DNA of 64,000 nt from Thermonemataceae bacterium (GTDB taxonomy: Bacteria > Bacteroidota > Bacteroidia > Cytophagales > Thermonemataceae). A program made the translations under genes and the position numbers. This document shows positions 49,401-64,000 of this stretch, one piece after another. The stretch spans positions 32,479 to 96,478 of the forward strand of contig JANRLU010000092.1 of the NCBI GenBank assembly GCA_033762275.1, written 5' to 3'. The notes beneath the pieces are model-generated. The model had not been told where the DNA came from and searched no databases. It worked only from the letters and a program-made list of their open reading frames with translations. Within the stretch, counting starts at the first letter, position 1. Each line of letters begins with the position of its first letter.

Positions 49401-50230
49401 GCATTAGGCAAACCAGCGTTTGGGTGGGCTGATGTGAAAAAAGAGGATTTATGAGCTATTTCTTCGGAATGAGGACGAAGTAAATCAGCTCCTAAAGCAC
49501 AGTTAAAGCCAATAGAAAGCAAGGGTAGATGAGACATAGAAATCATAAAGGCTTCGGCAGTTTGCCCCGAAAGTGTACGCCCTGAAGCGTCTGTAATTGT
49601 TCCAGACACCATAATAGGTAATTTCTTGCCCGTTTTCTCAAAGAAACTTTCTATGGCAAATAAAGCGGCTTTAGCATTAAGGGTATCAAAAATAGTTTCA
49701 ACCAACAAAATATCTGCTCCACCATCTACCAAACCTCTAATTTGCTCGGTATAGGCTTCTACCAATTCATCAAAAGTGATAGCTCTAAACCCTGGATTAT
49801 TAACATCAGGGGAGAGAGAAGTTGTTTTGCTGGTAGGTCCTAAAGAGCCTGCCACAAAACGAGGTTTTTCTGGCTCTCTTTGGGTAAACTCCTCACAAAC
49901 TTCCTTCGCAATTTTAGCTGACTGATGATTAAGTTCATATACCAAGTCTTGCATTTGATAATCTGCCATTGAAACAGAAGTGCTATTAAATGTATTCGTT
50001 TCAATGATATCAGCACCTGCTTCCAAGTATTTTTTATGAATTTCTTTAATAATATGAGGTTGTGTGATAGAAAGTAAATCATTATTCCCTTTCAAATCGT
50101 GGGGAAAATCTTTAAATCTTTCACCTCTATAGTCTTCTTCGGTCAGTTTATACTGCTGAATCATTGTTCCCATTGCACCATCCAGCACAAGGATTCTATC
50201 TTTCAGTATTTCGTAAATGTTCGTTGCCAT
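46487..50230 (-). CDS. metH: cobalamin-dependent methionine synthase
   Basis: 1247 aa with all modules: Hcy (GGCCGT), pterin, B12 (GDVHDIGKN) and the AdoMet activation domain. Confidence 0.95.
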
Positions 50231-52707: not shown

Positions 52708-53325
52708 TCAACTTTCTTGCAGATGTGATAAGCTATTATGCGTAAGAATATGAAAAGCGGAGCCAGTATATCTCAAATGGTAAAAAGAGGTGTTTCGGTG
52801 TTCAAAATAATCCATATATTTTAGTGGATAGCCCAACCACCAAGCCAACAAAATACGCATAGCTCTGCCGTGTGAGCATACCATAATTTCGGTGGCTGCA
52901 TCTTTTAGCAAAACTTTTGTAAAAATTTGTTGTCTATATTGCACTTCATCAGGGGTTTCTCCTTCTGTAATGGCTACATTAGTTTGCCCATTTCTCCAAG
53001 CTGACGTATAAAAAAGATACTCTTGATGTGCTTCTTTTGTAAAAGGCTTTCCCTCGTGTATGCCCCAACTAATTTCGTCTAAACCTTCGTGCTTTTCTAC
53101 CTCTACATTTTTCTTAAAAAATTGCTCAACCGTTTGTTGCGTACGTTTCAGCGTGGAGATATAAATTTTTTGCAGTGGTAAATGCTGATAGTGTTCGTAA
53201 AATTTCCGAGCTTGTTCCAATCCCGTTTCATTGAGGTCTGCATCTATACCTTTACCTTGTACCATCCCTTTTCGGTTGTACTCGGTTTCTGCGTGTCTGA
53301 GAAGATAAATATTTTTAGGAAACAT
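52708..53325 (-). CDS. histidine phosphatase family protein (PGM/CobC-like)
   Basis: IYLLRHAETEYN catalytic motif and a C-terminal SHG. I use the ATG at 53325. The track start at 53400 would overlap the upstream gene by 64 nt. Confidence 0.8.
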   Translation of the reverse strand: MFPKNIYLLRHAETEYNRKGMVQGKGIDADLNETGLEQARKFYEHYQHLPLQKIYISTLKRTQQTVEQFFKKNVEVEKHEGLDEISWGIHEGKPFTKEAHQEYLFYTSAWRNGQTNVAITEGETPDEVQYRQQIFTKVLLKDAATEIMVCSHGRAMRILLAWWLGYPLKYMDYFEHRNTSFYHLRYTGSAFHILTHNSLSHLQES

Positions 53326-53336
53326 TTTTTTAGTTT

Positions 53337-54044
53337 TTACTGAATACTCCTCACCAACACAAAAGCCTCTGCCAAAGGTTTGCCTACGACTACGCCCCAA
53401 CGCTGTGCCAAAATACGCAAAGCCTCTGGAGAACGTGGGTGCGGAAACTCACGCTTTTCGAACTCATAACTTTCCATACCTTTGATTTTTGCCTCCAAAC
53501 TTTCGGGTTCAAAACTTACAAAAAAATTAGGCAAAAAAGGATTAGGATAATTAAAAGCCTGCCACTCGGTAGAAGAGGGTGTTTCGAAAGTAAAAATACT
53601 TTTTACTAGCTCGTGTGCCATAGGGCGTGTGGCGGTGATAACTGCCTCAAAAGTGCGGCGATGGTCTATGTTGGTATCGCTGCCGTGATGCGTAAAAATA
53701 ATTTCGGGCTGAAAATCTTGTTTTTCTTTTTCTATGACTTTTACCAAATCGAGCAGGGCTACGGTATCAAAGCGGTTATCAGCAAAATCGTAGATGCCTA
53801 CACTTTGGTAGCCAATACATTTTTGGGCTGTATAGATGTTGTTTCTATGAATATCGAGTTCTTTCTGCCATTGTTCTCTATCTCTGGCATCGGCTCTTGA
53901 GGTAATGCCCTCACCCAAAATAATCACACGCACTTGTGCTTGAGCGTTCTTGATAAGGTGGTGCATGGTAGCCCCTAAACCTAGTAGTTCATCATCAGGA
54001 TGGGCTACTACTACTAGGATTTTTTTGTTTTCAAAATTTATCAT
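53337..54044 (-). CDS. PIG-L/LmbE-family N-deacetylase
   Basis: VVVAHPDDELLG zinc-binding motif and HxDH (NIDH). Confidence 0.85.
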   Translation of the reverse strand: MINFENKKILVVVAHPDDELLGLGATMHHLIKNAQAQVRVIILGEGITSRADARDREQWQKELDIHRNNIYTAQKCIGYQSVGIYDFADNRFDTVALLDLVKVIEKEKQDFQPEIIFTHHGSDTNIDHRRTFEAVITATRPMAHELVKSIFTFETPSSTEWQAFNYPNPFLPNFFVSFEPESLEAKIKGMESYEFEKREFPHPRSPEALRILAQRWGVVVGKPLAEAFVLVRSIQ

Positions 54045-54742
54045 ACTACAAAATTTCTTCCCTTTCGTATAATTTCTATGCTTTCATCACCACAATTAAA
54101 TAATAAATCTAAAATAGACATATAAGGTTCAAAACCTTCAAATCTTTGTGGATATTTCGGGTGTTGATACTCTTGAAAAAGAACTTTTATGTTTTTAGCT
54201 TGGAATTTGCCTATTTCTAAATAATCTCTTCCTAATTTCCCAGAAATATAAGTTAAAGCACCTACCTTTTCGCACAAATCCAATACTAAATCGGATTTTG
54301 TGCTTTCTATTTGGAGACTACTGCTGTATAAAATTTCCGTTTTAATGTGTAGAGACGCTAAAAAAAATTGATTAAGTGTTTCAGTTATATCTATCAACTT
54401 TTGCCAATCTTGAGTATATATTTTTTCTAATTCATAAAAATACTTTTCAAAAAATGGCGACTTGCTATAATTCTGTTGAATACTAGTTAAGTGTTTTTTT
54501 GCCCACTTTGTTTTATCGTCAGTCAAAATAGTATCGATAGCCAAATCCCCAAATCTACCTTTGCTTTGAATAGGTACTGTCAGCCAAATACCACCGTTAC
54601 TACTGAGTATTTTATTTCGGTTGACGAAACTATTTTTTTCAAATTGAACGTGGTCTAGAACTATGTATTTATCTACGTAATCAATTCTATCAAAATACCC
54701 CAACCAAGGTAAATACGCAGGCTGATTAATGGCTACTATCAT
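54041..54742 (-). CDS. WbqC-family protein
   Basis: The N-terminus MIVAINQPAYLPWLGYFDRI is characteristic of the WbqC-like family. I chose the ATG at 54742. Confidence 0.75.
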   Translation of the reverse strand: MIVAINQPAYLPWLGYFDRIDYVDKYIVLDHVQFEKNSFVNRNKILSSNGGIWLTVPIQSKGRFGDLAIDTILTDDKTKWAKKHLTSIQQNYSKSPFFEKYFYELEKIYTQDWQKLIDITETLNQFFLASLHIKTEILYSSSLQIESTKSDLVLDLCEKVGALTYISGKLGRDYLEIGKFQAKNIKVLFQEYQHPKYPQRFEGFEPYMSILDLLFNCGDESIEIIRKGRNFVV

Positions 54743-55349
54743 AATTATTTTGAGGTTTTTTATACATATAAATGGTAAAATCTCTTGAGTGATAGTCTTG
54801 CCTAAGGACAACCCAAGGCGTGATAGATTGACAATATTTTAGAGTTTCGATTGGGTCAGCATAAAACTCTCCATCTTCTTGATCTTTTGCATGGGTACTC
54901 AAAGAATTGAATGCTACAACTTCATTAGCATAATCAAACATTTTTTTAATAAAGTTTTCCATTATATTTTTAGCATTATCACCTAATAGATAGAAAATAC
55001 CGTTGCTTGTAACAATATCGTATTTTTGTATTGGAGGCTCATCAAATACATTTTTTAAATACACTTTTAGTTCAGGGTGTAATTGTTGTGCTTTGATAAT
55101 CATTTCATTTGATATATCTACCCCTTCATATTTTACATTATTGTATAAATTTTTCAAGAAAACTCCAAAGTCTGCAAAGCCACAACCTATATCTAATATA
55201 CTTTTGTTATCATAAATAGTGGCTTCGCTCATTACTTTAAATTTAACTCTTTGCGAGTGAGGGCTTCCATAATCACAGGCTCTAGGATTGTATCCATATT
55301 TCAAGACTAAATTATCGTAGTAATTGCTAATTTTATCTAAATTATTCAT
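54726..55349 (-). CDS. class I SAM-dependent methyltransferase
   Basis: Motif I ILDIGCGFADFG, then YDIVTSNGIF. Confidence 0.8.
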   Translation of the reverse strand: MNNLDKISNYYDNLVLKYGYNPRACDYGSPHSQRVKFKVMSEATIYDNKSILDIGCGFADFGVFLKNLYNNVKYEGVDISNEMIIKAQQLHPELKVYLKNVFDEPPIQKYDIVTSNGIFYLLGDNAKNIMENFIKKMFDYANEVVAFNSLSTHAKDQEDGEFYADPIETLKYCQSITPWVVLRQDYHSRDFTIYMYKKPQNNYDSSH

Positions 55350-56862
55350 TGTGGATATGATTTAATGATTCCATAATTACTTTTATTACGAGTTCTTGCT
55401 CTTCCAAACGTAAAGTCGGATAAATAGGCAAAGAAATAACTTCTTCATAAGCAGCTTTGGCATTCGGAAATTTCTCAATTTCATTTTCAAGCCAATTTTC
55501 AATAGGTTTAGCTATGCCAACGTTCTTTGACGATACTTTTTCAACAAATTCTTTCTGTTTTATTCTTACCCTAATTGGGAATCTATACCAAACTTTGTCA
55601 TGATGAAATTTGGGCAAACTAAAAAATGTATATTTTTGTTCTAATTCTTTGAGCATTTCATAGTATCTGCGGGCTACTTCCTCTCTTTTGATGATGAAAT
55701 CTTCTATTCTATGAAGTTGAGTGGCTAAAATTGCCGCTTCTAAATCACTCATTTTATCATTCAGGCGTTTAGCAGAAGGTTTTTTATCTGTATAATCTCG
55801 CCAATCACGTACAAATTCTGCTATTTCGCTATCATCAGTCATAACCACGCCACCTTCTCCGCTGCCAACAAATTTGGTCGCATAAAAAGATGAAATAGAA
55901 ATTTGACCTTTATTACCCATATTCGCCTTTAATAATCCATGAGCACAATCCTCTATAATAGCTATGTTCTTTCTGATTTTTAAAGATATAGGATTACCAA
56001 ATGTATTAACTCCAATGATTGCCTTTGTTTTATCCGATATATGTTGGTTTATATTTTCATCGGTTATATTAAAATCTATAGGAGATATATCCACCGGGAT
56101 AGGAGTAGCCCCGACAGATAGTACAGCATTGACAAGTGCAACACAACAATAGGCAGGCATCAATACTTCATCATTTTTTTTGATATCCAATGCCAATAAA
56201 GACAGCCTTAAAGCCGATAATCCGGAGGAAACTAAAATACTATACTTTCTTTGTGTTAGTTCACATAACTTTTTTTCAACCTCTTGCACCTTTTTGCCAC
56301 CAGCCCAGTAACCAGTCGCTACCACACGTGAAATAGCATCTATTTCTTCTTGCCCAAAAGTTAGCCTATTATGAGGAATTTTTTTCTTATTGCTATGCAT
56401 ATAAAGGTAATGATCGTTTGGAATATTAATCCGTAGAGATTTTGCCTCTAATATTCTTATGAAATTAGCTTTCTCAAAGGCTCTTTGACTGTGCAAATTT
56501 GTCTTAATTACGAAAGCTGCAACACTGATATTTTCATATTTTTCCGACAAAATTTCTATTCCACTATTTATTGCTTTAGTCCCCAATCCTTGACCTATAT
56601 ATTCCTTTAACAGATATATGGAAATGACGTAAGTATTCTCGTATGCTTTTTTAAATGTTAGTTGCCCTATGGCTTTATTTTCAACCTCTATGACAAAAAC
56701 AATTAGATTGTCAGTATGTTGAACAGCTTCCTCAACCCACTTTTTATGCTCCTCCCAAGAAACTTCTCTTTGTTGAGAACCCAAATTTTTAATAAAATCA
56801 CTGTTACGCCACTCAAATATCATTTTGGCATCTTCTTCTCTTAATCTGCGAAGTGTAATCAT
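55342..56862 (-). CDS. fusion of a PseH-like GNAT N-acetyltransferase and a DegT/DnrJ/EryC1-family PLP aminotransferase
   Basis: Residues 1-~160 are GNAT (LRRLREEDAKMIFEWRN.., IGQGLG). Residues ~170-506 are DegT-like with a Schiff-base Lys context SFYATKFVGSGEGG. Confidence 0.85.
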   Translation of the reverse strand: MITLRRLREEDAKMIFEWRNSDFIKNLGSQQREVSWEEHKKWVEEAVQHTDNLIVFVIEVENKAIGQLTFKKAYENTYVISIYLLKEYIGQGLGTKAINSGIEILSEKYENISVAAFVIKTNLHSQRAFEKANFIRILEAKSLRINIPNDHYLYMHSNKKKIPHNRLTFGQEEIDAISRVVATGYWAGGKKVQEVEKKLCELTQRKYSILVSSGLSALRLSLLALDIKKNDEVLMPAYCCVALVNAVLSVGATPIPVDISPIDFNITDENINQHISDKTKAIIGVNTFGNPISLKIRKNIAIIEDCAHGLLKANMGNKGQISISSFYATKFVGSGEGGVVMTDDSEIAEFVRDWRDYTDKKPSAKRLNDKMSDLEAAILATQLHRIEDFIIKREEVARRYYEMLKELEQKYTFFSLPKFHHDKVWYRFPIRVRIKQKEFVEKVSSKNVGIAKPIENWLENEIEKFPNAKAAYEEVISLPIYPTLRLEEQELVIKVIMESLNHIHNE

Positions 56863-57542
56863 ACTTTTTCAGCAATAATTTCCCATTCTGCATGGATACC
56901 TATACTTTTATTCTCCAAATCGTGTATTACTTTGTGTTTTTTACTTAGGATTTTCCAACCTTTACCAAATAAATCATCAAATTCATCTTCTTTGAAGAAA
57001 TAGATATGTTCAATACCCGCCAGTGAACCCATTTTCATAGAAGAACGTGTACCATCATTATTTTTTATACCAGAATCAGCACTACTATGGCTAACACTAT
57101 AAACATTAGTGAAAAATTTACCACTCTTTACTAATACACGATGCACTTCCCCAACTGCTTTTTTTATATCTTCCCAACCGCAACAAGTCAGTGAAGCTCT
57201 ATCTATGACCAAATCAAAATTATTGTCCTTAAAAGGTAGGTCTGTAAAATCACCCACCCAAAACTCAGCTTTTAGACTTTCTGTTTCAAAACGTTTTTTT
57301 GCAAATTCTATTGCTGACTGACTTCCATCTATTCCGACAACATTAAAACCTTCTTTTGCTGCAAACCAAAGATTATTACCCGCTCCTGAACCAATCTCTA
57401 AAATAGCTACTTCATTTTTAGGTTTATCTCTTGGGTAATTTCTAAAAATAAAACTGACCACATTATCATAAGGATACTTATTCAGATGTTGTCCTTGCGA
57501 ATAAATCTCATTTTCCCAAAAACTGTTGGTTGTTTGTTTCAT
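56859..57542 (-). CDS. class I SAM-dependent methyltransferase
   Basis: Motif I ILEIGSGAGNN, then FDLVIDRASL. Confidence 0.8.
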   Translation of the reverse strand: MKQTTNSFWENEIYSQGQHLNKYPYDNVVSFIFRNYPRDKPKNEVAILEIGSGAGNNLWFAAKEGFNVVGIDGSQSAIEFAKKRFETESLKAEFWVGDFTDLPFKDNNFDLVIDRASLTCCGWEDIKKAVGEVHRVLVKSGKFFTNVYSVSHSSADSGIKNNDGTRSSMKMGSLAGIEHIYFFKEDEFDDLFGKGWKILSKKHKVIHDLENKSIGIHAEWEIIAEKV

Positions 57543-58903
57543 AAATTGTTTTTAATTGTTTTACTAATACTTTTGATAATACTGTTTTTGGTAAGCTCCC
57601 AATCCTCCAGCCCTAGCGTTCTCTCTTGAGGAATGAAACTTAAAACCCTTTCTAACTCTATACTATATCCTACTTTTGGTAATTTATAAGAAACAGGCGT
57701 TTTAAGAAGAAATTTACCCTCACAGATTGCTTCAGAACTAACAATACCCATATCTTTTATTTCTTCCCAAATTGTATCAGAATAAGCTTCAGGATTACTC
57801 CATATAGCTGAATTTATTTTACAAGGTACTTCACAACACACATACGCTTTTCCTTTGGGTGCATTATTAGTTCCGTAGTTTGTGGGGATAGATGCTCTGA
57901 ATGTATAAAAATTAGTATCAAAATTGTGTATGTATGAATAATCACTCACAAACTTCTCATCTAAAGTAAAATAATAAAGTATAAGAGGAACTGGATAGAC
58001 AAAATCTTTGAGTTTATTTTCTATACCAAATAAATCTCCAATAAGTTCCTGAGAACTTGCCCACAACAAATAATCTGCTCTTAGAGGATTCTCTTGCCCA
58101 CTAATGAGTACCTCTATACTATTTTTATCTACATTTATCTTTTCTACTTTTTTTCCCAACAACAAATTTACACTAAGTTGTTCCAGTTTTACTTTAGATT
58201 TTTCACAAAAAAGACGTGTTCCATTTTTATTTGGATAAAAATTTCTGCGTGCATAACTTTGTGCGATTTCTTGATAGAACTCCATAGGATTTTCTTGAGA
58301 AGAAACAGCTATTTTATTGTCGAGTATAGGATTTTTCTTTAAAAACCTACCCATTTCATCACTTGTGAATTTGATACGCTTATAAGTAGTTAAATTTAGG
58401 GCGTTGCTATCTATCTCCTTAATACTTATAGCGTGTGTTTTGGTCATAAGTTGTTCAATAATTTTGGCAGCAGTAGTTCCGTGTATGGTGCTGAATTTAT
58501 CAAGTAGTGTAATGCTTCTTTTTTCTGTTTTAGTGGCTGTTTCTAAGGTCTCCCACAATATTTTCTGCGAAACTTCTTGCCCCAATGATGATAAATCAGG
58601 TATAGAAATTCCATTTGTTTTTTGATTATTAAAAAAAGAAGCGTATTTTATAAAGGAAGGATTTACTTCGTTGTCGAGAATTTCTAAGGTAAGATTTGTT
58701 GTCTCGTCAGTATCATTATCAAATACATGACAACCTATATCCAAGTCAAATCCTTGCCAATGTTTAGCATAAAGTATTCCACCTACCTCTTTGGCACTAT
58801 CAACAATAGTTACTTTTTTTCCATTTTTGGCTAAAAGGTACGCAACTACCAAGCCTCTAAAACCTGCTCCTACAATTACCCAATTTTCTTCTCTTTCCAC
58901 CAT
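57539..58903 (-). CDS. FAD/NAD(P)-binding Rossmann oxidoreductase (amine-oxidase / UDP-galactopyranose-mutase-like)
   Basis: N-terminal dinucleotide fold VIVGAGFRGLVVAYLLAKNGKKVTIVDS. The rest (454 aa total) was not recognised further. Confidence 0.7.
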   Translation of the reverse strand: MVEREENWVIVGAGFRGLVVAYLLAKNGKKVTIVDSAKEVGGILYAKHWQGFDLDIGCHVFDNDTDETTNLTLEILDNEVNPSFIKYASFFNNQKTNGISIPDLSSLGQEVSQKILWETLETATKTEKRSITLLDKFSTIHGTTAAKIIEQLMTKTHAISIKEIDSNALNLTTYKRIKFTSDEMGRFLKKNPILDNKIAVSSQENPMEFYQEIAQSYARRNFYPNKNGTRLFCEKSKVKLEQLSVNLLLGKKVEKINVDKNSIEVLISGQENPLRADYLLWASSQELIGDLFGIENKLKDFVYPVPLILYYFTLDEKFVSDYSYIHNFDTNFYTFRASIPTNYGTNNAPKGKAYVCCEVPCKINSAIWSNPEAYSDTIWEEIKDMGIVSSEAICEGKFLLKTPVSYKLPKVGYSIELERVLSFIPQERTLGLEDWELTKNSIIKSISKTIKNNL

Positions 58904-58908
58904 AATTA

Positions 58909-59961
58909 TTAGTTTAAAATTTCAAAATTTATTACTTCACTTTTAAAAATATTTCTTTGTAATGTTTTTCCGATTAGTAAATTTACAAACTTAGGGGCTA
59001 AGCCTGTTGCGGGACGTGAAAAAGTAATATCTTCTTTTTGTAGGATATGTCCTTGTGGTAAATCTGTTTTAGCTACACAAGACAAGCGAAAGTTTAAACG
59101 CCCTTCTTGTTCTTTAGTTGTGGGAGCTATTTTAGAAACTCCAAAAGATTTTTCTAAAAATCGTATAGCCATAACTAAATCTTTCATTTCTTGCGGATTA
59201 GCAGAAAAACGATGGTCGGGTCCCTCTAAATTTTTGTCCAAAGTAAAGTGTTTCTCTACAAAACACGCTCCTAATGCTACTGCTCCCAAAGCTGCCACAA
59301 TGCCTTCAGTGTGGTCAGAAAATCCAATCGGGTACTGAAAGGCTTGCATCAGAGCTGGAATTTTTCTTAGATTAACTTCTTCAGCAGGGGTAGGATATGC
59401 CGAAATACAATGCAAAATAATAAGTTCTTTTCCACCTGCTTGTTCAAATGCTCGCACTGCATCATCTATTTCTGCCAAAGTTGCCATTCCTGTAGAAATG
59501 ATAGTTGGAATTGTAGTTTTTGCCATTTCAGCAATTAGCTCCAAATTTACTAAAAAATCAGAACCATTTTTAAGCAAAGGAGTGCTTATTTTTTGTAAAT
59601 CTTCAATACCTCTAATGCTTGTAGGCGTGCTAAAAAAGACAAGTCCTAATTCATCACAATAATCCTTTAAAGTATTTAATTGTTCTACATTTAACTCATA
59701 ACGCTTGAACATTTCATATTGTGTTTCAGTAATTTTTTGTCCTTGTGATGTGTAACTGTAAGTTAGATTTTTATCCAAAATAAAATCTTCTGTATAATAA
59801 TTTTGAAATTTTACCGCATCAACTCCTGCATCTTTGGCGGCAAGAATCATCTTTTTAGCCAACTCTATATCACCATTATGATTGATGCCTATTTCAGCAG
59901 CAATAAAACAAGGATGATTCTGCCCAATTGTAATGTTCTCTGTAATTTGTATATCTTTCAT
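58909..59961 (-). CDS. pseI: pseudaminic acid synthase (NeuB family with C-terminal SAF domain)
   Basis: FIAAEIGINHNGD, KFQ, the SDH motif (GFSDHTEG) and a C-terminal SAF-like tail. Called pse by context. Confidence 0.8.
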   Translation of the reverse strand: MKDIQITENITIGQNHPCFIAAEIGINHNGDIELAKKMILAAKDAGVDAVKFQNYYTEDFILDKNLTYSYTSQGQKITETQYEMFKRYELNVEQLNTLKDYCDELGLVFFSTPTSIRGIEDLQKISTPLLKNGSDFLVNLELIAEMAKTTIPTIISTGMATLAEIDDAVRAFEQAGGKELIILHCISAYPTPAEEVNLRKIPALMQAFQYPIGFSDHTEGIVAALGAVALGACFVEKHFTLDKNLEGPDHRFSANPQEMKDLVMAIRFLEKSFGVSKIAPTTKEQEGRLNFRLSCVAKTDLPQGHILQKEDITFSRPATGLAPKFVNLLIGKTLQRNIFKSEVINFEILN

Positions 59962-59969
59962 TTTTTCAA

Positions 59970-60128
59970 CTAAAAAGTTAGGGAATATTTTATCAATGTT
60001 TCTTTAATGATTTCATCAGAGATTGCGTCACTTATCTTCTATTCTATTGGCTCGGAGTAGTCTATGCCTTCAAAATATACTATCTTTTGTCTAAACAATT
60101 TTTCAGAATAACCCTCTTCTAAATTGTT
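59970..60128 (-). pseudogene. possible C-terminal remnant of an AbiEii-like nucleotidyltransferase toxin gene
   Basis: A start-less 52-codon frame NNLEEGYSEKLFRQKIVYFEGIDYSEPIE*KISDAISDEIIKETLIKYSLTF* with an in-frame TAG at 60039-60041. The YFE.ID..EPI pattern resembles AbiEii C-termini as I recall them. Confidence 0.3.
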
Positions 60129-60157
60129 TTAAAAAAGACAATAAAAGTTGTTGCTCT

Positions 60158-60433
60158 TCAGAAAGGATATTGAGGTACATATCTCTGAAAATATAAGTGA
60201 AAAAAATTCTTTACCTGTGGAAAATAGTTGTGCCTATCATTTTTGATGGCTTTGGCGAACTCCCTCGCTACTTCCTCTTTGCCAAGTGTTTCTAAAAGTT
60301 CTCTTAAGGCTGTCATATCTCCATAATTCAAAATAAACTCAATCAGAATGGGTTTAGTTATTTTGTCCAATTTTTTTTTATCAAAGTACCAAAACAAATG
60401 TTTGTTCTTTTCTATTATTTGTTGTAATTCCAT
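60158..60433 (-). CDS. small conserved-looking protein (91 aa), possibly the antitoxin-side partner of a decayed TA pair
   Basis: The LFWYFDKKKLDKI...ILNYGDMTALRELLETLGKEE pattern resembles small Bacteroidota proteins found upstream of AbiEii-type genes. This recollection was not verified. Confidence 0.55.
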   Translation of the reverse strand: MELQQIIEKNKHLFWYFDKKKLDKITKPILIEFILNYGDMTALRELLETLGKEEVAREFAKAIKNDRHNYFPQVKNFFHLYFQRYVPQYPF

Positions 60434-60498
60434 AATATTTTAACAATTTCCTAGTCATTCATTTATTCTTTATTTTGATATTAAAATAATTATTTACA

Positions 60499-61488
60499 TC
60501 ATAAAAAAACACTTATGATACGTTCCATAATTTTAGCATTAAAATCTTTCTTTTGGTTTTGCAAATATGCAATTTCTATTTCAAAATTTGAAACGTTACT
60601 TGATAGGTTCTGAAAGTTTTCTACTCCTAAGCATAAAGCATTTTTCGATAAAAATTGATATATACCTTTCTGATTTTCCACATACCAGCCTGTTATCAAA
60701 TACATACCTACAGCACAAATTTCATAAGCAATACTGCTCGCAGGAGCGATGGCAAGTTGGCAATGTTGCATCAAATCACACATTTCTTGGGCATCAAGAT
60801 TCTGGTGTATTTGTACTTTTTTGTACTCTTGGGCAAAATTAGTAAATTCTTGAAAATATGGATAAGCCGAACCTAAAACTACATGAATTTCTGTAAATTT
60901 TTCTACTGTAAGGCAGGCTTCAGTGGCTTTTTGGCTAAGGTTATGGATATCCGAACCACCAAAACAGATAAAAACTTTTTCTATTTTCTCTATTTTTCGT
61001 TCTTTTTTGGCAGCTTCGAGGAAAGGTTTTCGCAGAAGGGCATAATCAGTCCCTAAGTATAGTTTGGTATAATTTTCACAAGAATACTCGCTTTCCTGCA
61101 CTCCTCCAGCATGATTAATAACGGCATCAGCTACAAAATGCCAAGCGTGCATATCATCAATACAAACAAGTTTAATTTTTTTTGTTTTGAGTATTTTTTG
61201 GTAGTCGGTTTGGAAATTGTAGCCATCTAAAACGATTATATCATTTGCTTGTAGATAAGTTTCTTTGATAAAATATGCCTCTTGCAAATAATCTTGAGTT
61301 TGGGGCAAAACAATGAGTGTGAAACTTTCTCGAATTTGTTTTTGCAGAATTTCGGAAGGGTTTCGCACCAAGAACACACAATTAAAATTCTCTTTGAGCA
61401 TATCAGCCAAAGCCATACTTCTGGTGATATGCCCTAAACCTATTTCGGTATTGCCATCTGCACGGAAGTAGATCTTTGATTTTGTCAT
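60499..61488 (-). CDS. pseG: UDP-2,4-diacetamido-2,4,6-trideoxy-beta-L-altropyranose hydrolase
   Basis: The IYFRADGNTEIGLGHITRSMALADML signature fits PseG, and the protein has a GT-B-like layout. I prefer the ATG at 61488, which forms an ATGA overlap with the pseF stop. Confidence 0.8.
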   Translation of the reverse strand: MTKSKIYFRADGNTEIGLGHITRSMALADMLKENFNCVFLVRNPSEILQKQIRESFTLIVLPQTQDYLQEAYFIKETYLQANDIIVLDGYNFQTDYQKILKTKKIKLVCIDDMHAWHFVADAVINHAGGVQESEYSCENYTKLYLGTDYALLRKPFLEAAKKERKIEKIEKVFICFGGSDIHNLSQKATEACLTVEKFTEIHVVLGSAYPYFQEFTNFAQEYKKVQIHQNLDAQEMCDLMQHCQLAIAPASSIAYEICAVGMYLITGWYVENQKGIYQFLSKNALCLGVENFQNLSSNVSNFEIEIAYLQNQKKDFNAKIMERIISVFL

Positions 61489-62180
61489 TGTTTGCTCTGT
61501 AACCATTGGTATTTTATTTGTGCAATTTCCCAGTCTTCTTGATTATCAATATCTTGCACTTCGGTTTCGGGCAAGATAATCGCTCCTGTGTTATTTGTCC
61601 AAAGCTGTTGTTTTTGTAAGATGCTCTGAACATTAAAAAAATAAAATTGTCCCGCATCATGATAGGCAGACTCTAAGTCTTGAGAACGTTTGTTGAGATT
61701 TTCTGGCTCAAACATAGCAATTTTTCCAGCCTTATCCATTTTCAAAGCTCTTTGGATAGGATAAGAAAAACGTACCATTGGAAATACACAATCATAATTT
61801 TTCTTTTCTAACAATTCCTTTGCTTCTTCTAATCTTCGCACACTTACAAATGGTGCTGTAGGATACACACAACAAGATTTCTCAAAAACGAAACCTATTT
61901 TTTTGTACTGCTCCAAAACTTCTACTAAAACATCTACTGTTCCAGTAAAATCATCAGCATTATCAGCACTTCTCAGAAAAGGTACTTTTGCTCCGTATTT
62001 TTTGGCAACTTCCGCAATTTCTTCGTCCTCAGTAGAAACCATGACTTCAGAAAACAAACCTGATTCTAAGGCAGTTTCTATGGAGTAGGCAATAATAGGT
62101 TTTCCTAGAAAATCTTTGATGTTTTTTCTAGGAATACGCTTGCTTCCGCCTCTGGCGGGTATAATAGCTATGGTTTTCAT
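61485..62180 (-). CDS. pseF: pseudaminic acid cytidylyltransferase
   Basis: The IAIIPARGGSKRIPRKNIKDFLGKPIIAYSIE motif marks the CMP-nonulosonate synthetase family. Confidence 0.85.
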   Translation of the reverse strand: MKTIAIIPARGGSKRIPRKNIKDFLGKPIIAYSIETALESGLFSEVMVSTEDEEIAEVAKKYGAKVPFLRSADNADDFTGTVDVLVEVLEQYKKIGFVFEKSCCVYPTAPFVSVRRLEEAKELLEKKNYDCVFPMVRFSYPIQRALKMDKAGKIAMFEPENLNKRSQDLESAYHDAGQFYFFNVQSILQKQQLWTNNTGAIILPETEVQDIDNQEDWEIAQIKYQWLQSKQ

Positions 62181-63322
62181 TTTACAAACGCTAAGACCTT
62201 TTCAATAACAAAATCTTGTTCTTTTTCTGTGAGCGAAGGATACATCGGCAGAGATAAACAATTTTCGTAATATTTCTCCGCATTTGGGAAATCTCCTTTT
62301 TGCCAGCCCAAGCCCTGATAATAGGGCAAAGTGTGGACGGGAATGTAATGCACTTGTGCAAATATCTGATTTTCACGCAGATAATCGTACAAATCTTTTC
62401 TATTTTCCACTTGGATAACGTACAAATGATAGGCGTGTCCCAAGTCTGAGAGTATTGGGAAATATTTTATAGGCTTGCCCTCAAAAGCCTTGTCATATCT
62501 TTGGGCTATCTGTATCCTTTTTTGCAAATTTTCTGCTGCCCTATCCAGCTGCGAAACGCCTAATGCTGCCAAAATATCGGGCATACGATAGTTAAAACCT
62601 AACACTTGCATTTCATAATACCAGCCTCCATGATTTTCGTGCATCAAATCAGGATTTTTAGTGATACCGTGCGTCCTGAGTATCAAAAGTTTATCGTATA
62701 AATCTTTTCGGTTGGTAGTTATCATTCCTCCTTCACCTGTGGCAATATGCTTGACGGGATGAAAGGAAAAAATTGCCAAATCTGCAAAATTGCCGTTGCC
62801 ACAAGTTTGCTTTTGACCTTTTGTATCTACAAAATAGCCGCCTGGTGCGTGGCAGGCGTCTTCAATAATCCACAAATTATGTTTATCTGCTAACTCTCTA
62901 AATTTTTCTAAATTTACGGGTAATCCCATAAAATCTACGGGAATAATCCCCTGAAAAAATCCTTTGGGTTTGGATAATATCAATTTTTCTACGGCTTCTA
63001 TATCTATCAGAGCTGTTTGGGGGTCAATATCAGCAAACCAAACTGTTCCACCTGCATACCGAATACAATTCGCTGAGGCAGCGAAGGTAATAGGCGAAGT
63101 AATTACGTTAGAATTTTGCTCTACACCTAAAGCCAAAGTACATAAATGTAGAGCAGCTGTACCATTGGCGACCGCTACCGTGTATTTTGCTCCTACATAG
63201 TTAGCAAATTTTTCCTCAAACTCAGCAATTTTGGGACCTTGCGTAAGAAAATCGCTTTGCAAAGCATCAAGTACACTATTTATGTCATCTTTTGTAATTT
63301 CTTGTTTACCATAAGGAATCAT
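62177..63322 (-). CDS. pseC: UDP-4-amino-4,6-dideoxy-N-acetyl-beta-L-altrosamine transaminase
   Basis: DegT family, starting MIPYGKQEITKDDI, with Lys context SFHPVKHIATGEGG. Confidence 0.85.
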   Translation of the reverse strand: MIPYGKQEITKDDINSVLDALQSDFLTQGPKIAEFEEKFANYVGAKYTVAVANGTAALHLCTLALGVEQNSNVITSPITFAASANCIRYAGGTVWFADIDPQTALIDIEAVEKLILSKPKGFFQGIIPVDFMGLPVNLEKFRELADKHNLWIIEDACHAPGGYFVDTKGQKQTCGNGNFADLAIFSFHPVKHIATGEGGMITTNRKDLYDKLLILRTHGITKNPDLMHENHGGWYYEMQVLGFNYRMPDILAALGVSQLDRAAENLQKRIQIAQRYDKAFEGKPIKYFPILSDLGHAYHLYVIQVENRKDLYDYLRENQIFAQVHYIPVHTLPYYQGLGWQKGDFPNAEKYYENCLSLPMYPSLTEKEQDFVIEKVLAFVK

Positions 63323-63331
63323 AAAAAACTA

Positions 63332-64000
63332 TTATAGAGGTTCAAAAGTATTATCAATATGCAGTTTTATCAATTCTCTGATTTGCTCTATACTTAACCA
63401 ATCCGTATTTTTCCCGGAGCTATAAGCAAAACCTTTTTCTACTTTTTTGGCTTGGTAGTAGTCTGTATATTTTCTCATTAATTCTTCGTAGGAGGTATGA
63501 AGGAGGTTTGGTACTATAATAAAGTATTTTTCGGTTTCAATGGTGTTCAAAGAGTCCGTTTCTGTTATCATTTCTTCGTGAAGTTTCTCGCCTGGTCTGA
63601 TACCCACCACTCTTTGCTCGCAACTTGGGGCAATCGCCTCAGCTACATCAGTGATTTTGTAAGAAGGTATTTTAGGAACAAATAATTCGCCGCCAATAGC
63701 CTTTTCCAAGGCGTACAAAACCAAATCAACACCCTCTTCCAAAGAAATATTAAATCTGGTCATTTCTGTATCTGTAATTGGTAGGAAGCCCTCTTCCCTT
63801 TTTTTAAGAAAAAACGGAATAACAGAACCTCTCGAACCCATTACATTCCCATACCTCACCACCGAAAATACTAAATCTCGGCTACCCTTCATATTATTGG
63901 CTGCCACAAAAAGTTTATCAGAGCAGAGTTTAGTTGCTCCATACAAATTGATGGGGGCAGCCGCCTTATCAGTAGAGAGAGCCACAACTTTTTTTACGCC
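63332..64000 (-). CDS. pseB: UDP-N-acetylglucosamine 4,6-dehydratase (inverting), partial: N-terminus lies beyond the window
   Basis: STDKAAAPINLYGATKLCSDKLF (YxxxK catalytic motif). The frame stays open to position 64000, and the M at 63985 in the track is an internal GTG. Confidence 0.9.
   Translation of the reverse strand, partial: GVKKVVALSTDKAAAPINLYGATKLCSDKLFVAANNMKGSRDLVFSVVRYGNVMGSRGSVIPFFLKKREEGFLPITDTEMTRFNISLEEGVDLVLYALEKAIGGELFVPKIPSYKITDVAEAIAPSCEQRVVGIRPGEKLHEEMITETDSLNTIETEKYFIIVPNLLHTSYEELMRKYTDYYQAKKVEKGFAYSSGKNTDWLSIEQIRELIKLHIDNTFEPL

What the first reader, a model, noticed from the sequence alone, without database searches (positions are those of the whole stretch)
52708..64000. 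Pseudaminic-acid locus extended by a translationally coupled seven-gene tailoring block: candidate pathway for an undescribed nonulosonic-acid derivative
Seen: the minus strand carries pseB (partial), pseC, pseF, pseG, a small ORF plus a gene remnant, and pseI. Seven more genes follow, joined by 4-17 nt overlaps or gaps of 11 nt or less (58904-58908, 57539-57542, 56859-56862, 55342-55349, 54726-54742, 54041-54044, 53326-53336). They encode a Rossmann FAD/NAD oxidoreductase, a SAM methyltransferase, a GNAT::DegT fusion, a second SAM methyltransferase, a WbqC-family protein, a PIG-L/LmbE deacetylase and a histidine-phosphatase-fold enzyme. Established: CMP-Pse5Ac7Ac synthesis in Campylobacter/Helicobacter needs only PseB, PseC, PseH, PseG, PseI and PseF. 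Inference: a deacetylase, a second aminotransferase, two methyltransferases and a flavoenzyme hard-wired to pseI suggest a dedicated route. That route could remove or replace N-acyl groups and methylate or oxidise the nonulosonate, or it could build an unusual N-acyl substituent. No glycosyltransferase, Wzx/Wzy, flagellin or Maf gene is visible, so the acceptor in this presumably non-flagellated lineage is unknown.
Basis: partly seen in the sequence, partly recalled or inferred. Interest (0 to 1): 0.72.

Follow-up and report, generated by a model that had tools for sequence, protein, structure and literature searches.

The report
Pseudaminic-acid locus with conserved tailoring module
A cell-surface sugar (pseudaminic-acid type) gene cluster carries a conserved but biochemically uncharacterised set of tailoring genes that recurs next to such clusters in many bacterial phyla, so it probably makes an undescribed variant of this sialic-acid-like sugar.

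Summary
All 13 minus-strand genes, the 4-17 nt overlaps and the domain calls are as described.

- **Co-occurrence:** The extra genes are not chance neighbours.
- **Two sub-modules:** Sub-module B is widespread. It holds a distinct NeuB-family synthase clade (NeuB*, not canonical PseI), WbqC and a PIG-L deacetylase, with an optional methyltransferase, second DegT aminotransferase, and GNAT or formyltransferase. Sub-module A is rare: an amine-oxidase-fold flavoenzyme plus a methyltransferase.
- **Phosphatase:** The histidine phosphatase was found in none of 115 related loci and is probably not part of the pathway.
- **GNAT domain:** It probably fills the missing PseH slot rather than being an extra.
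- **Fusion:** The GNAT::DegT fusion is lineage-specific.

The most likely function is a Pse-type nonulosonate whose N-acetyl group is removed. The freed amine is then left free, methylated or re-acylated, and further modified before CMP activation.

A 2026 preprint gives chemical precedent for this outcome. The roles of WbqC (no solved-structure relative) and the flavoenzyme remain unknown.

Verdict: a new variant of a known kind, of moderately high interest.

The parts
63332..64000 (-). pseB (3' part; cut by the window end): UDP-GlcNAc 4,6-dehydratase (inverting)
   Evidence: TIGR03589 PseB 314.8 bits over model positions 116-323. The full-length cut-off of 407.75 cannot be applied to a fragment.
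62177..63322 (-). pseC aminotransferase
   Evidence: TIGR03588 470.4 bits against a cut-off of 423.5.
61485..62180 (-). pseF CMP-pseudaminate synthetase (cytidylyltransferase)
   Evidence: TIGR03584 321.6 bits against a cut-off of 205.7.
60499..61506 (-). pseG UDP-sugar hydrolase
   Evidence: TIGR03590 213.2 bits against a cut-off of 153.55.
59962..60498 (-). Insert between pseG and the synthase. It holds a DUF6922-like ORF (60158-60433) and two out-of-frame fragments of a degraded gene. Not part of the pathway.
   Evidence: Pfam DUF6922 25.4 bits, below the cut-off of 27. Three-frame translation. GC 0.279. No homologue in any of 115 related loci.
58909..59961 (-). NeuB* : NeuB-family nonulosonate synthase of a distinct clade that travels with WbqC and PIG-L. 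It is not an equivalog of PseI.
   Evidence: NeuB_NnaB 350 bits (cut-off 399.65) and PseI 285 bits (cut-off 340.25). Monophyletic clade of 53 in a neighbour-joining tree: 47-72% identity to the window protein, against 26-40% for other NeuB-family ORFs. Every member lies within 5.3 kb of a WbqC gene.
57539..58903 (-). Flavoenzyme (sub-module A): GR2/amine-oxidase-fold FAD protein of a small family. Reaction unknown.
   Evidence: Pfam NAD_binding_8 and Amino_oxidase. AlphaFold2 pLDDT 94. Foldseek best hits are protoporphyrinogen oxidase and eukaryotic UDP-galactopyranose mutase, TM about 0.70, 13-15% identity. 380 representatives at E<=1e-30 among 1.84 billion.
56859..57542 (-). MT-A (sub-module A): class-I SAM methyltransferase, usually adjacent to the flavoenzyme
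   Evidence: Pfam Methyltransf_25 75.9 bits. A homologue (>=100 bits) lies within 2.5 kb of the flavoenzyme in 14 of the 26 distinct flavoenzyme loci; other loci carry a weaker methyltransferase match or a different methyltransferase nearby.
55342..56862 (-). GNAT::DegT fusion. The N-terminal GNAT (about aa 1-158) is the likely N-acyltransferase in the PseH slot. The C-terminal DegT2 is an optional second PLP aminotransferase of sub-module B.
   Evidence: Pfam. PseH model 43.8 bits, below the cut-off of 93.1. The best near-full-length PDB hit of the GNAT part is C. jejuni PseH 4xpk. DegT2 keeps the SFxxxK lysine. The two are separate genes in L115 and L021.
54726..55349 (-). MT-B (sub-module B): class-I SAM methyltransferase
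   Evidence: Pfam. Present in 27 of 37 WbqC-anchored loci, directly upstream of WbqC. Fused to the GNAT in L011 and L001.
54041..54742 (-). WbqC-family protein (core of sub-module B). Function and mechanism unknown.
   Evidence: PF08889 262 bits. At least 4323 relatives. AlphaFold2 pLDDT 93, yet no significant PDB fold match: best E 0.047, TM <=0.32.
53337..54044 (-). PIG-L/LmbE-family de-N-acetylase (core of sub-module B)
   Evidence: PF02585 72.7 bits. The AHPDDE...DH metal motif is invariant in 14 orthologues. Present in 34 of 37 WbqC-anchored loci.
52708..53325 (-). Histidine-phosphatase-fold enzyme. It is probably co-transcribed (11-nt gap), but it is not conserved with the module.
   Evidence: His_Phos_1 170 bits. 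Best NCBIfam hit is CobC, 99 bits, below the cut-off of 163. 0 homologues in 115 related loci. GC 0.382, like the flank.

Best explanation
The locus encodes a pseudaminic-acid-type CMP-nonulosonate pathway extended by a conserved, horizontally mobile tailoring module.

**Shown by family membership**
- PseB, PseC and PseG make a 4-amino-6-deoxy-L-altrose-type hexose from UDP-GlcNAc.
- PseF activates the final acid with CTP.

**Inferred**
- The GNAT domain does the PseH-like N-acylation.
- The dedicated synthase NeuB* condenses the hexose with PEP. Its own clade, separate from PseI, suggests that its substrate already differs from 2,4-diacetamido-6-deoxy-altrose.
- The PIG-L enzyme removes an N-acetyl group, most simply the one inherited from UDP-GlcNAc, which becomes N5.
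- The exposed amine is then left free, methylated (MT-B and/or MT-A) or re-derivatised. WbqC is the obligate but mechanistically unknown partner of the deacetylase.
- DegT2 is optional in the family and present here. It adds or relocates an amino group on a keto intermediate.
- The flavoenzyme plus MT-A pair is a rarer, separable add-on that introduces one further redox-linked methyl modification.
- The histidine phosphatase is probably a bystander.

The product would be a charge-altered, methylated Pse-like sugar for a surface glycan. The transferase for that glycan is not in the window.
For: **Core pathway**
- PseC, PseF and PseG pass their equivalog cut-offs. PseB is a strong partial match.

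**Co-occurrence**
- Loci anchored on the flavoenzyme come from Flavobacteriales, Bernardetiaceae, Calothrix, Anaerolineales, Verrucomicrobiales, Myxococcales, Dehalococcoidia and several Proteobacteria. They carry NeuB-family and pse genes in 20 of 26 cases.
- L115 and L021 repeat the window's exact gene order.
- WbqC-anchored loci of at least 8 kb carry PIG-L in 34 of 37, a NeuB-family gene in 34 of 37, PseG in 31, PseC in 29, MT-B in 27 and DegT2 in 19.

**NeuB***
- It is a monophyletic clade linked to WbqC.
- It coexists with a genuine PseI (493 and 499 bits) in L059 and L021.

**Acyltransferase slot**
- The slot is interchangeable: GNAT here, formyltransferase in L012 and L114, hexapeptide acyltransferase in L002.
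- Fusions NeuB*::GNAT (P0170) and GNAT::MT-B tie the GNAT to the module.

**Deacetylase**
- The PIG-L metal motif is invariant.

**Chemical precedent**
- CMP-nonulosonates with one free amine, one formylated amine and +14 Da were reported in Ca. Kuenenia.
- They were ascribed to a deacetylase and a formyltransferase inside a leg-like cluster (preprint 10.64898/2026.04.20.719630).
Against: - No step of the tailoring module has been tested biochemically anywhere.
- The order of steps, and the stage at which they act (UDP-sugar, free hexose, free acid or CMP-acid), is unknown.
- The GNAT domain fails the PseH equivalog cut-off (43.8 vs 93.1).
- NeuB* fails the PseI cut-off, so the nine-carbon stereochemistry is not established.
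- WbqC plus PIG-L also occur without any nonulosonate genes. Examples are B. mycoides pBWB401 with a FemAB-family gene and Streptomyces tRNA-ProX operons (PMC10404621). Their chemistry is therefore not specific to nonulosonates.
- The flavoenzyme fold does not discriminate between oxidase, desaturase/reductase and mutase chemistry.
- I could not check whether the Kuenenia deacetylase is a PIG-L enzyme or whether WbqC is present there.
Confidence: 0.55

Rival explanations
1. Mycothiol-like re-acylation. PIG-L frees the amine, WbqC ligates or transfers an amino-acyl or other unusual acyl group onto it, and the GNAT and methyltransferases then cap that substituent (N-acetyl or N-methyl). DegT2 converts a keto-acyl group to an amino-acyl group. 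The product would be a Pse with an N-(N-acetyl/N-methyl-aminoacyl) group rather than a free or methylated amine.
For: - WbqC and LmbE pair with aminoacyl-tRNA machinery elsewhere. Examples are ProRSx, GT4, WbqC, lmbE and tRNA-ProX in Streptomyces (PMC10404621), and FemAB-family, WbqC and PIG-L in B. mycoides.
- The logic matches MshA/MshB/MshC/MshD (established knowledge).
- The weak Foldseek hits of WbqC are mostly HUP-type nucleotide-binding folds.
- The name WbqC comes from an E. coli O-antigen cluster. From memory, that O-antigen (O121) carries an N-acetylglycyl amino sugar.
Against: - There is no ATP-binding or ligase motif, and no significant structural match for WbqC (best E 0.047).
- The minimal loci (PseB, PseC, PseG, NeuB*, WbqC, PIG-L) lack the GNAT, MT-B and DegT2.
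- No aminoacyl-tRNA-related gene lies in this locus.
Confidence: 0.2
2. NeuB* and its partners form a separate pathway that only borrows PseB/PseC intermediates. It makes a different keto-acid backbone: another stereoisomer, a triamino (for example 8-amino) acid, or a C-methylated or extended ulosonic acid. It is not a decorated Pse.
For: - NeuB* coexists with a true PseI in L021 and L059.
- NeuB* scores higher on the NeuB/Leg-type model than on PseI.
- The closest solved relatives of DegT2 are mostly C-3 or sugar-phosphate aminotransferases such as KabA, NtdA, WbpE and QdtB. H. pylori PseC scores only 63 bits.
- C10 'extended backbone' ulosonic acids with no assigned genes are reported.
Against: - In the window NeuB* is the only synthase, and it sits between canonical PseG/PseF and the tailoring genes.
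- PseF passes the PseF equivalog cut-off comfortably.
- No oxidoreductase is consistently paired with DegT2. The flavoenzyme and DegT2 occur independently of each other.
Confidence: 0.17
3. Chance neighbourhood. The locus makes plain Pse5Ac7Ac, and the downstream genes serve unrelated functions.
For: - Every downstream family is generic (methyltransferases, GNAT, DegT, FAD oxidoreductase).
- The histidine phosphatase does appear to be unrelated.
Against: - The same genes recur in the same order beside pse genes across phyla.
- There are translational overlaps of 4-17 nt.
- There is no canonical PseI or PseH in the locus.
Confidence: 0.04
4. Decaying, non-functional locus in this metagenome-assembled genome (MAG).
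For: - A degraded toxin-antitoxin-like insert separates pseG from the synthase.
- The pathway lacks equivalog-grade PseH and PseI.
Against: - All 12 pathway ORFs are intact and full-length relative to their homologues.
- Catalytic motifs are retained: AHPDDE/DH, the PLP lysine, the GxGxG SAM and FAD motifs, and RHA.
Confidence: 0.04

Closest known systems
Canonical CMP-Pse5Ac7Ac pathway (PseB, C, H, G, I, F) of Campylobacter jejuni and Helicobacter pylori
   Same: PseB, PseC, PseG and PseF are orthologue-grade. The logic is the same: UDP-GlcNAc to a 6-deoxy-altrose derivative, PEP condensation, then CMP activation.
   Different: - There is no equivalog PseH or PseI.
- The synthase is a separate clade (37-39% identity to validated PseI).
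- Six extra conserved genes are present.
Leg-like cluster of Ca. Kuenenia stuttgartiensis with a deacetylase and a formyltransferase (SugarBase preprint 10.64898/2026.04.20.719630)
   Same: - A deacetylase and an N-acyl (formyl) transferase are embedded between nonulosonate core genes.
- The products are CMP-nonulosonates with a free amine, a formyl group and +14 Da.
- Relatives of the window locus carry a formyltransferase in the GNAT slot.
   Different: - The core is Leg-type there and Pse-type here.
- The preprint text does not name the deacetylase family or mention WbqC, a flavoenzyme or a second aminotransferase. I could not inspect that genome.
- The gene assignment there is also only inferred.
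Mycothiol and bacillithiol biosynthesis (MshA/BshA GT4; MshB/BshB LmbE deacetylase; MshC ligase; MshD GNAT)
   Same: An LmbE-family de-N-acetylase frees a sugar amine that is then re-acylated and capped by a GNAT. BshB is the best NCBIfam hit of the PIG-L protein, though far below its cut-off.
   Different: - The substrate is a different sugar (nonulosonate pathway intermediate).
- There is no GT4 or aaRS-like ligase.
- WbqC has no counterpart in those pathways.
CMP-sugar-stage N-acyl tailoring in Campylobacter (PseA; PtmG/PtmH giving acetamidino and N-methylacetimidoyl groups)
   Same: Accessory genes inside the nonulosonate locus change N-substituents, and a methyltransferase is involved.
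   Different: - The enzyme families are unrelated (PP-loop amidotransferases).
- Those enzymes convert the acetamido group directly, without a deacetylase, WbqC or a flavoenzyme.
Tannerella forsythia Pse5Am7Gra locus (Bacteroidota)
   Same: A Bacteroidota surface glycan carrying a Pse derivative whose N5 and N7 groups are not acetyl (PMC5378307).
   Different: The tailoring genes there are still unidentified according to that paper. The paper text mentions no deacetylase or methyltransferase.
Streptomyces tRNA-ProX operons (ProRSx, GT4, WbqC, lmbE, murG) and the B. mycoides pBWB401 sugar cluster
   Same: The WbqC plus LmbE/PIG-L pair is conserved as adjacent genes.
   Different: There are no NeuB or pse genes. 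Aminoacyl-tRNA-linked enzymes are present. The function is also unknown.

Membership tests
CMP-pseudaminic acid pathway | PseB: inverting UDP-GlcNAc 4,6-dehydratase (TIGR03589 equivalog) | tested here: inconclusive
   314.8 bits over model positions 116-323. The gene is cut by the window end, so the full-length cut-off of 407.75 cannot be applied.
CMP-pseudaminic acid pathway | PseC aminotransferase (TIGR03588) | tested here: met
   470.4 bits, at or above the cut-off of 423.5. The LegC-family model scores only 220, below its cut-off of 420.
CMP-pseudaminic acid pathway | PseH N-acetyltransferase (TIGR03585) | tested here: not met
   The GNAT domain of the fusion scores 43.8, below the cut-off of 93.1. 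The C. jejuni PseH structure is a weak hit (24.7 bits). There is no other candidate in the locus.
CMP-pseudaminic acid pathway | PseG UDP-sugar hydrolase (TIGR03590) | tested here: met
   213.2 bits, at or above the cut-off of 153.55.
CMP-pseudaminic acid pathway | PseI pseudaminate synthase (TIGR03586) | tested here: not met
   285.1 bits, below the cut-off of 340.25. NeuB_NnaB scores 350.0, below its cut-off of 399.65. The protein falls in a separate clade from validated PseI.
CMP-pseudaminic acid pathway | PseF cytidylyltransferase (TIGR03584) | tested here: met
   321.6 bits, at or above the cut-off of 205.7.
CMP-pseudaminic acid pathway | Product has the L-glycero-L-manno configuration | not testable with these tools
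   Needs NMR of the sugar.
LmbE/PIG-L de-N-acetylases | PF02585 domain with the metal-binding H-P-D-D ... D-H motif | tested here: met
   72.7 bits, above the cut-off of 28.2. H15, P16, D17, D18, D127 and H128 are invariant in 14 orthologues. The BshB and MshB equivalog cut-offs are not met.
WbqC family (PF08889) | Full-length match to the family model | tested here: met
   262.2 bits, positions 1-217 of 218. The family has no assigned function and no solved structural relative.
UDP-galactopyranose mutase | TIGR00031 equivalog, full-length | tested here: not met
   30 bits, below the cut-off of 303.75, and the match covers N-terminal residues 8-75 only. The fold resembles eukaryotic UGM (TM about 0.70, 14-16% identity).
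Protoporphyrinogen oxidase / phytoene desaturase family | Equivalog models (TIGR00562, TIGR02734) | tested here: not met
   27.3 bits (cut-off 97.85) and 36.6 bits (cut-off 238.1). Only fold-level similarity.
Pseudaminic acid biosynthesis-associated methylase (TIGR03587) | Model cut-off | tested here: not met
   MT-B scores 25.9, below the cut-off of 112.05. The model is not among the 25 best hits shown for MT-A, out of 40.
Alpha-ribazole phosphatase CobC (TIGR03162) | Model cut-off | tested here: not met
   99.2 bits, below the cut-off of 162.9. Only superfamily membership (His_Phos_1, 170 bits) is shown.

The most novel reading that the evidence does not exclude
NeuB*, WbqC and PIG-L define a widespread, unrecognised branch of nonulosonate biosynthesis. 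In this branch the hexose is re-tailored before PEP condensation. The product is a sugar with a free or methylated amine, a third amino group (via DegT2), or a C-methylated or extended backbone (via the flavoenzyme plus MT-A).

WbqC would be a new enzyme class with a fold unrepresented among solved structures.

This branch would supply the missing genes for the free-amine and 'C10' ulosonic acids recently seen by mass spectrometry.
Probability: 0.3. Interest if true: 0.8.

Novelty: new variant of a known kind. Interest (0 to 1): 0.62.

Why it matters
Nonulosonic acids (bacterial sialic-acid analogues) set surface charge and influence phage and immune recognition. Their N- and O-substituents create most of their diversity. 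The enzymes that install those substituents are largely unknown, as PMC5378307 states explicitly.

This locus is one instance of a module present in thousands of environmental genomes:
- WbqC has at least 4323 protein clusters.
- The 120 best NeuB* hits are all at least 58% identical to the window protein.

The module has no curated name, no biochemistry and, for WbqC, no structural precedent.

It offers concrete gene candidates for the free-amine, formylated and methylated CMP-nonulosonates, and perhaps for the extended-backbone ulosonic acids, that mass spectrometry has started to reveal.

It also offers cultured strains in which to test them: Leptospira sp. GIMC2001 and Mariluticola halotolerans LMO-2.

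Tried and rejected
1. **Finding the source contig beyond position 64000.** Exact-sequence look-ups of the window's PseC and flavoenzyme found no record. What lies upstream of pseB stays unseen.
2. **Genome scan with the 29-sequence flavoenzyme alignment.** It failed for lack of a conserved stretch. An 8-sequence alignment worked.
3. **Sequence and profile searches of the PDB.**
   - For the flavoenzyme they gave only superfamily-level, mostly N-terminal matches.
   - For WbqC they gave nothing.
4. **WbqC as a degenerate LmbE paralogue.** hhalign probability 0.1, rejected.
5. **Histidine phosphatase as part of the module.** The ideas tested were dephosphorylation of a sugar phosphate or a phosphoglyceroyl intermediate. 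No homologue exists in 115 loci, so it was rejected as a conserved member.
6. **Flavoenzyme plus DegT2 as an obligate oxidise-then-aminate pair.** They occur independently of each other, so this was rejected as a general rule.
7. **Promoter and terminator scan of the locus.** Counts were at shuffle level, and the consensus is not suited to Bacteroidota, so it was uninformative.
8. **Literature searches.** Searches combining pseudaminic or nonulosonic acid with PIG-L, LmbE, amine oxidase or WbqC found nothing relevant. One broad search was unproductive.
9. **BfaA/BfaB (flavin reductase plus methyltransferase, 10-methyl fatty acids) as an analogy for flavoenzyme plus MT-A.** The paper confirms the two-gene logic and a 4-bp overlap but does not state BfaA's fold. 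I keep this only as a loose analogy.
10. **GC content as evidence of horizontal acquisition.** WbqC through PseG run at 0.30-0.34 against a window mean of 0.367 (sd 0.028), but PIG-L is at 0.424. The signal is weak.

Full report
**What is in the sequence**

The minus strand from 64000 down to 52708 carries 13 ORFs in one direction. In order they are:
- pseB (cut by the window end), pseC, pseF and pseG;
- a 537-bp insert;
- a NeuB-family synthase, a flavoenzyme and a methyltransferase (MT-A);
- a GNAT::DegT fusion and a second methyltransferase (MT-B);
- WbqC, a PIG-L deacetylase and a histidine-phosphatase-fold protein.

There are overlaps of 4, 4, 8, 17 and 4 nt and gaps of 5 and 11 nt. Directly downstream lie rpsA and metH, so the cluster ends at 52708.

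The 34 other large ORFs of the window are housekeeping genes. The only glycosyltransferase-like hit among the 25 families listed is a Kdo transferase (25 of 54 families were shown). The flavoenzyme is identical to MDX1903377.1 from a Thermonemataceae metagenome-assembled genome (MAG; Cytophagales, Bacteroidota), on a 101,892-bp contig.

**Family assignments**

PseC, PseF and PseG pass NCBIfam equivalog cut-offs, and PseB is a strong partial match. The core is therefore pse-type, not leg- or neu-type.

Two core steps fail their tests:
- The synthase scores 285 on PseI (cut-off 340) and 350 on NeuB_NnaB (cut-off 400).
- The only PseH candidate, the GNAT half of the fusion, scores 44 (cut-off 93).

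Against solved structures the synthase is roughly equidistant from PseI (183 bits), SpsE (177) and NeuB (165). The best near-full-length structural hit of the GNAT is C. jejuni PseH, and it is weak.

Catalytic motifs are intact:
- DegT2 keeps the PLP lysine.
- PIG-L keeps the AHPDDE...DH metal motif, which is invariant in 14 orthologues.
- Both methyltransferases and the flavoenzyme keep their glycine-rich cofactor motifs.

**Is the block a real unit?**

Yes, but it is not one seven-gene unit.

*Searching outward from the flavoenzyme.*
- The family is small: 29 clusters in the word-indexed search and 380 representatives at E<=1e-30 among 1.84 billion.
- The search gave 26 distinct loci. Of these, 20 carry a NeuB-family gene and pse genes.
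- The hosts are Bernardetiaceae, Flavobacteriales, Calothrix, two Anaerolineales, Verrucomicrobiales, Myxococcales, Dehalococcoidia, Rheinheimera, Pseudomonadales, Methylobacillus, Methylovorus and Maricaulis.
- Two loci (L115 and L021) repeat the window's order exactly: PseG, NeuB, flavoenzyme, MT-A, GNAT, DegT2, MT-B, WbqC, PIG-L. In both, GNAT and DegT2 are separate genes. The fusion here is therefore a local loss of a stop codon.

*Searching outward from WbqC.*
- The family is large, with at least 4323 clusters.
- The metagenome scan found at least 481 relatives.
- Among the 37 loci of at least 8 kb, the counts were: PIG-L 34, NeuB-family 34, PseG 31, PseC 29, MT-B 27, PseB 23, DegT2 19, PseF 14, GNAT 12, MT-A 11 and flavoenzyme 4.

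*Conclusion on structure.* The locus combines two sub-modules:
- Sub-module B is widespread. Its core is NeuB-family, WbqC and PIG-L, with optional MT-B, DegT2 and an acyltransferase.
- Sub-module A is rare: the flavoenzyme plus MT-A.

The histidine phosphatase and the DUF6922 insert have no homologue in any of the 115 loci.

**The synthase is part of the module**

In a neighbour-joining tree of 79 NeuB-family ORFs from all loci, the 53 that score at least 330 bits against the window protein form one clade.
- They are 47-72% identical to the window protein. All other NeuB-family ORFs are 26-40% identical.
- Every clade member lies within 5.3 kb of a WbqC gene.
- Members consistently score 312-350 on NeuB_NnaB and 223-285 on PseI.
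- L059 and L021 additionally carry a true PseI, at 493 and 499 bits.

I call this clade NeuB*. PGAP names it only 'N-acetylneuraminate synthase family protein', while JGI labels it legionaminate synthase.

A dedicated synthase that coexists with PseI argues that its aldose substrate differs from the canonical one. That would mean at least part of the tailoring precedes condensation. This is inference, not demonstration.

**The acyltransferase slot**

Between MT-A and MT-B, related loci carry different genes:
- a GNAT;
- a GNAT plus DegT2;
- a GNAT fused to MT-B (L011 and L001);
- a formyltransferase (L012 and L114).

The Myxococcales version has a hexapeptide acyltransferase next to the synthase. 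A NeuB*::GNAT fusion also exists (P0170). The slot therefore encodes an interchangeable N-acyl donor step. In the window it is the only plausible replacement for PseH.

**The unknowns**

*WbqC.* It folds confidently (pLDDT 93) but has no significant match among 350,542 PDB chains. The best E-value is 0.047 and TM is at most 0.32. It has no sequence match and is unrelated to PIG-L. The literature calls it uncharacterised.

WbqC is paired with an LmbE/PIG-L gene outside nonulosonate loci as well:
- with a FemAB-family gene on B. mycoides pBWB401;
- with ProRSx, GT4 and tRNA-ProX in Streptomyces (PMC10404621).

This suggests a general 'deacetylate an amino sugar, then do something to the amine' duo.

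*Flavoenzyme.* It folds confidently (pLDDT 94). It resembles protoporphyrinogen oxidase and eukaryotic UDP-galactopyranose mutase about equally (TM about 0.70, 13-16% identity). It fails every equivalog model. Its invariant D-x-G-C-H-[LV]-F motif recalls the G-P-H-I-F and G-G-H-V-I-F histidine loop of the mutases. That comparison rests on my memory and was not tested. Oxidase, reductase and mutase chemistry all remain open.

**Mechanism proposed**

Shown:
- A pse-type route to a 4-amino-6-deoxy-L-altrose derivative.
- CMP activation of the final acid.

Inferred:
- GNAT-mediated N-acylation.
- Hydrolysis of the UDP-sugar by PseG.
- De-N-acetylation by PIG-L with WbqC.
- Methylation by MT-B and MT-A.
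- An optional extra amination by DegT2.
- A redox-linked step by the flavoenzyme.
- PEP condensation by NeuB*.

The closest chemical precedent is a 2026 preprint. Ca. Kuenenia stuttgartiensis makes CMP-nonulosonates with one free amine, one formylated amine and +14 Da. Its leg-like cluster contains a deacetylase and a formyltransferase (10.64898/2026.04.20.719630).

The same preprint reports ulosonic acids with an extended carbon backbone and no assigned genes. The flavoenzyme plus MT-A pair is a speculative candidate for those.

**Acceptor**

The acceptor is not visible here. Relatives place the module in different contexts:
- beside ABC-2/Wzt exporters and GT2 genes (L011, L114);
- beside KpsC/S-like capsule genes (L007, L030, L070);
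- beside a Maf-type gene (L009).

The glycoconjugate therefore differs by lineage.

**Novelty and verdict**

No open-access paper links WbqC, LmbE/PIG-L or an amine-oxidase-fold enzyme to nonulosonate synthesis. The T. forsythia work states that nonulosonate-modifying enzymes are scarcely known.

This is a new variant of a known kind. It is a widespread, unnamed tailoring branch of pse-type biosynthesis, and the window carries a particularly complete example (A plus B plus DegT2). The general reading is well supported by comparative genomics. The specific chemistry is not established.

Noticed in passing
window 59962-60498 (minus strand): A low-GC (0.279) insert lies between pseG and the synthase. 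It holds a DUF6922-like 91-aa ORF plus two out-of-frame fragments ('...LNILSEEQQLLLSFLKQFRRGLF*' and '...KIVYFEGIDYSEPIE*'). To me these resemble the N- and C-termini of an AbiEii-type nucleotidyltransferase toxin, which would make this a degraded toxin-antitoxin pair sitting inside an operon. The toxin assignment rests on memory of the motif and was not tested.
   Followed up: partly
L021 17294-18343 and L059 9311-10360: Two related loci carry both the NeuB* synthase and a bona fide PseI (499 and 493 bits on TIGR03586) in the same gene cluster. This implies two nonulosonate products from one locus.
   Followed up: partly
L087, L095, L107, L072 (second NeuB copies): A third NeuB-family type (NeuB_NnaB 234-266 bits, PseI 185-207 bits, below both cut-offs) sits between PseC and PseF in several WbqC loci. 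It is neither NeuB* nor PseI.
   Followed up: no
L112 (Bacillus mycoides KBAB4 plasmid pBWB401, NC_010180.1 312921-319831): WbqC plus PIG-L occur without any NeuB or pse synthase. Their neighbours are a FemA/FemB-family gene, a UDP-sugar dehydrogenase, a DegT aminotransferase and a class-V aminotransferase. Twenty-eight Bacillus plasmid records hold a WbqC relative.
   Followed up: partly
L029 1-1889 and L032 2565-4595: A fused cytidylyltransferase (CTP_transf_3) and class-III aminotransferase protein of about 676 aa lies upstream of the NeuB* module. It is seen in Leptospira sp. GIMC2001 and in a metagenome contig.
   Followed up: no
L040 4000-6491; L007 949-3341: A GFO/IDH/MocA oxidoreductase, a short-chain dehydrogenase and a cytidylyltransferase often sit between PseC and PseG in WbqC loci. 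All three are absent from the window.
   Followed up: no
L113 (Mariluticola halotolerans LMO-2 plasmid NZ_CP090961.1, 56134-65453): A cultured strain carries a divergent but syntenic version: pseB, pseC, pseF, PIG-L, pseG, NeuB-family, a hypothetical gene, WbqC, an NAD(P)-binding protein (115 bits to the flavoenzyme) and a methyltransferase. It is followed by GT4 and asnB genes and is a possible experimental system.
   Followed up: partly
window 52708-53325 and 46487-50230: The histidine phosphatase's best NCBIfam hit is alpha-ribazole phosphatase CobC (99 bits, below the cut-off). It lies two genes from the B12-dependent methionine synthase metH, so a cobalamin-related role is conceivable.
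   Followed up: no
L005/L006, L018, L020, L025: More distant flavoenzyme homologues (about 30-33% identity; Emcibacter and other Proteobacteria) have no pse or NeuB genes nearby. In L005 the gene sits between a DOT1-like methyltransferase and a methylglyoxal-synthase-like gene.
   Followed up: no
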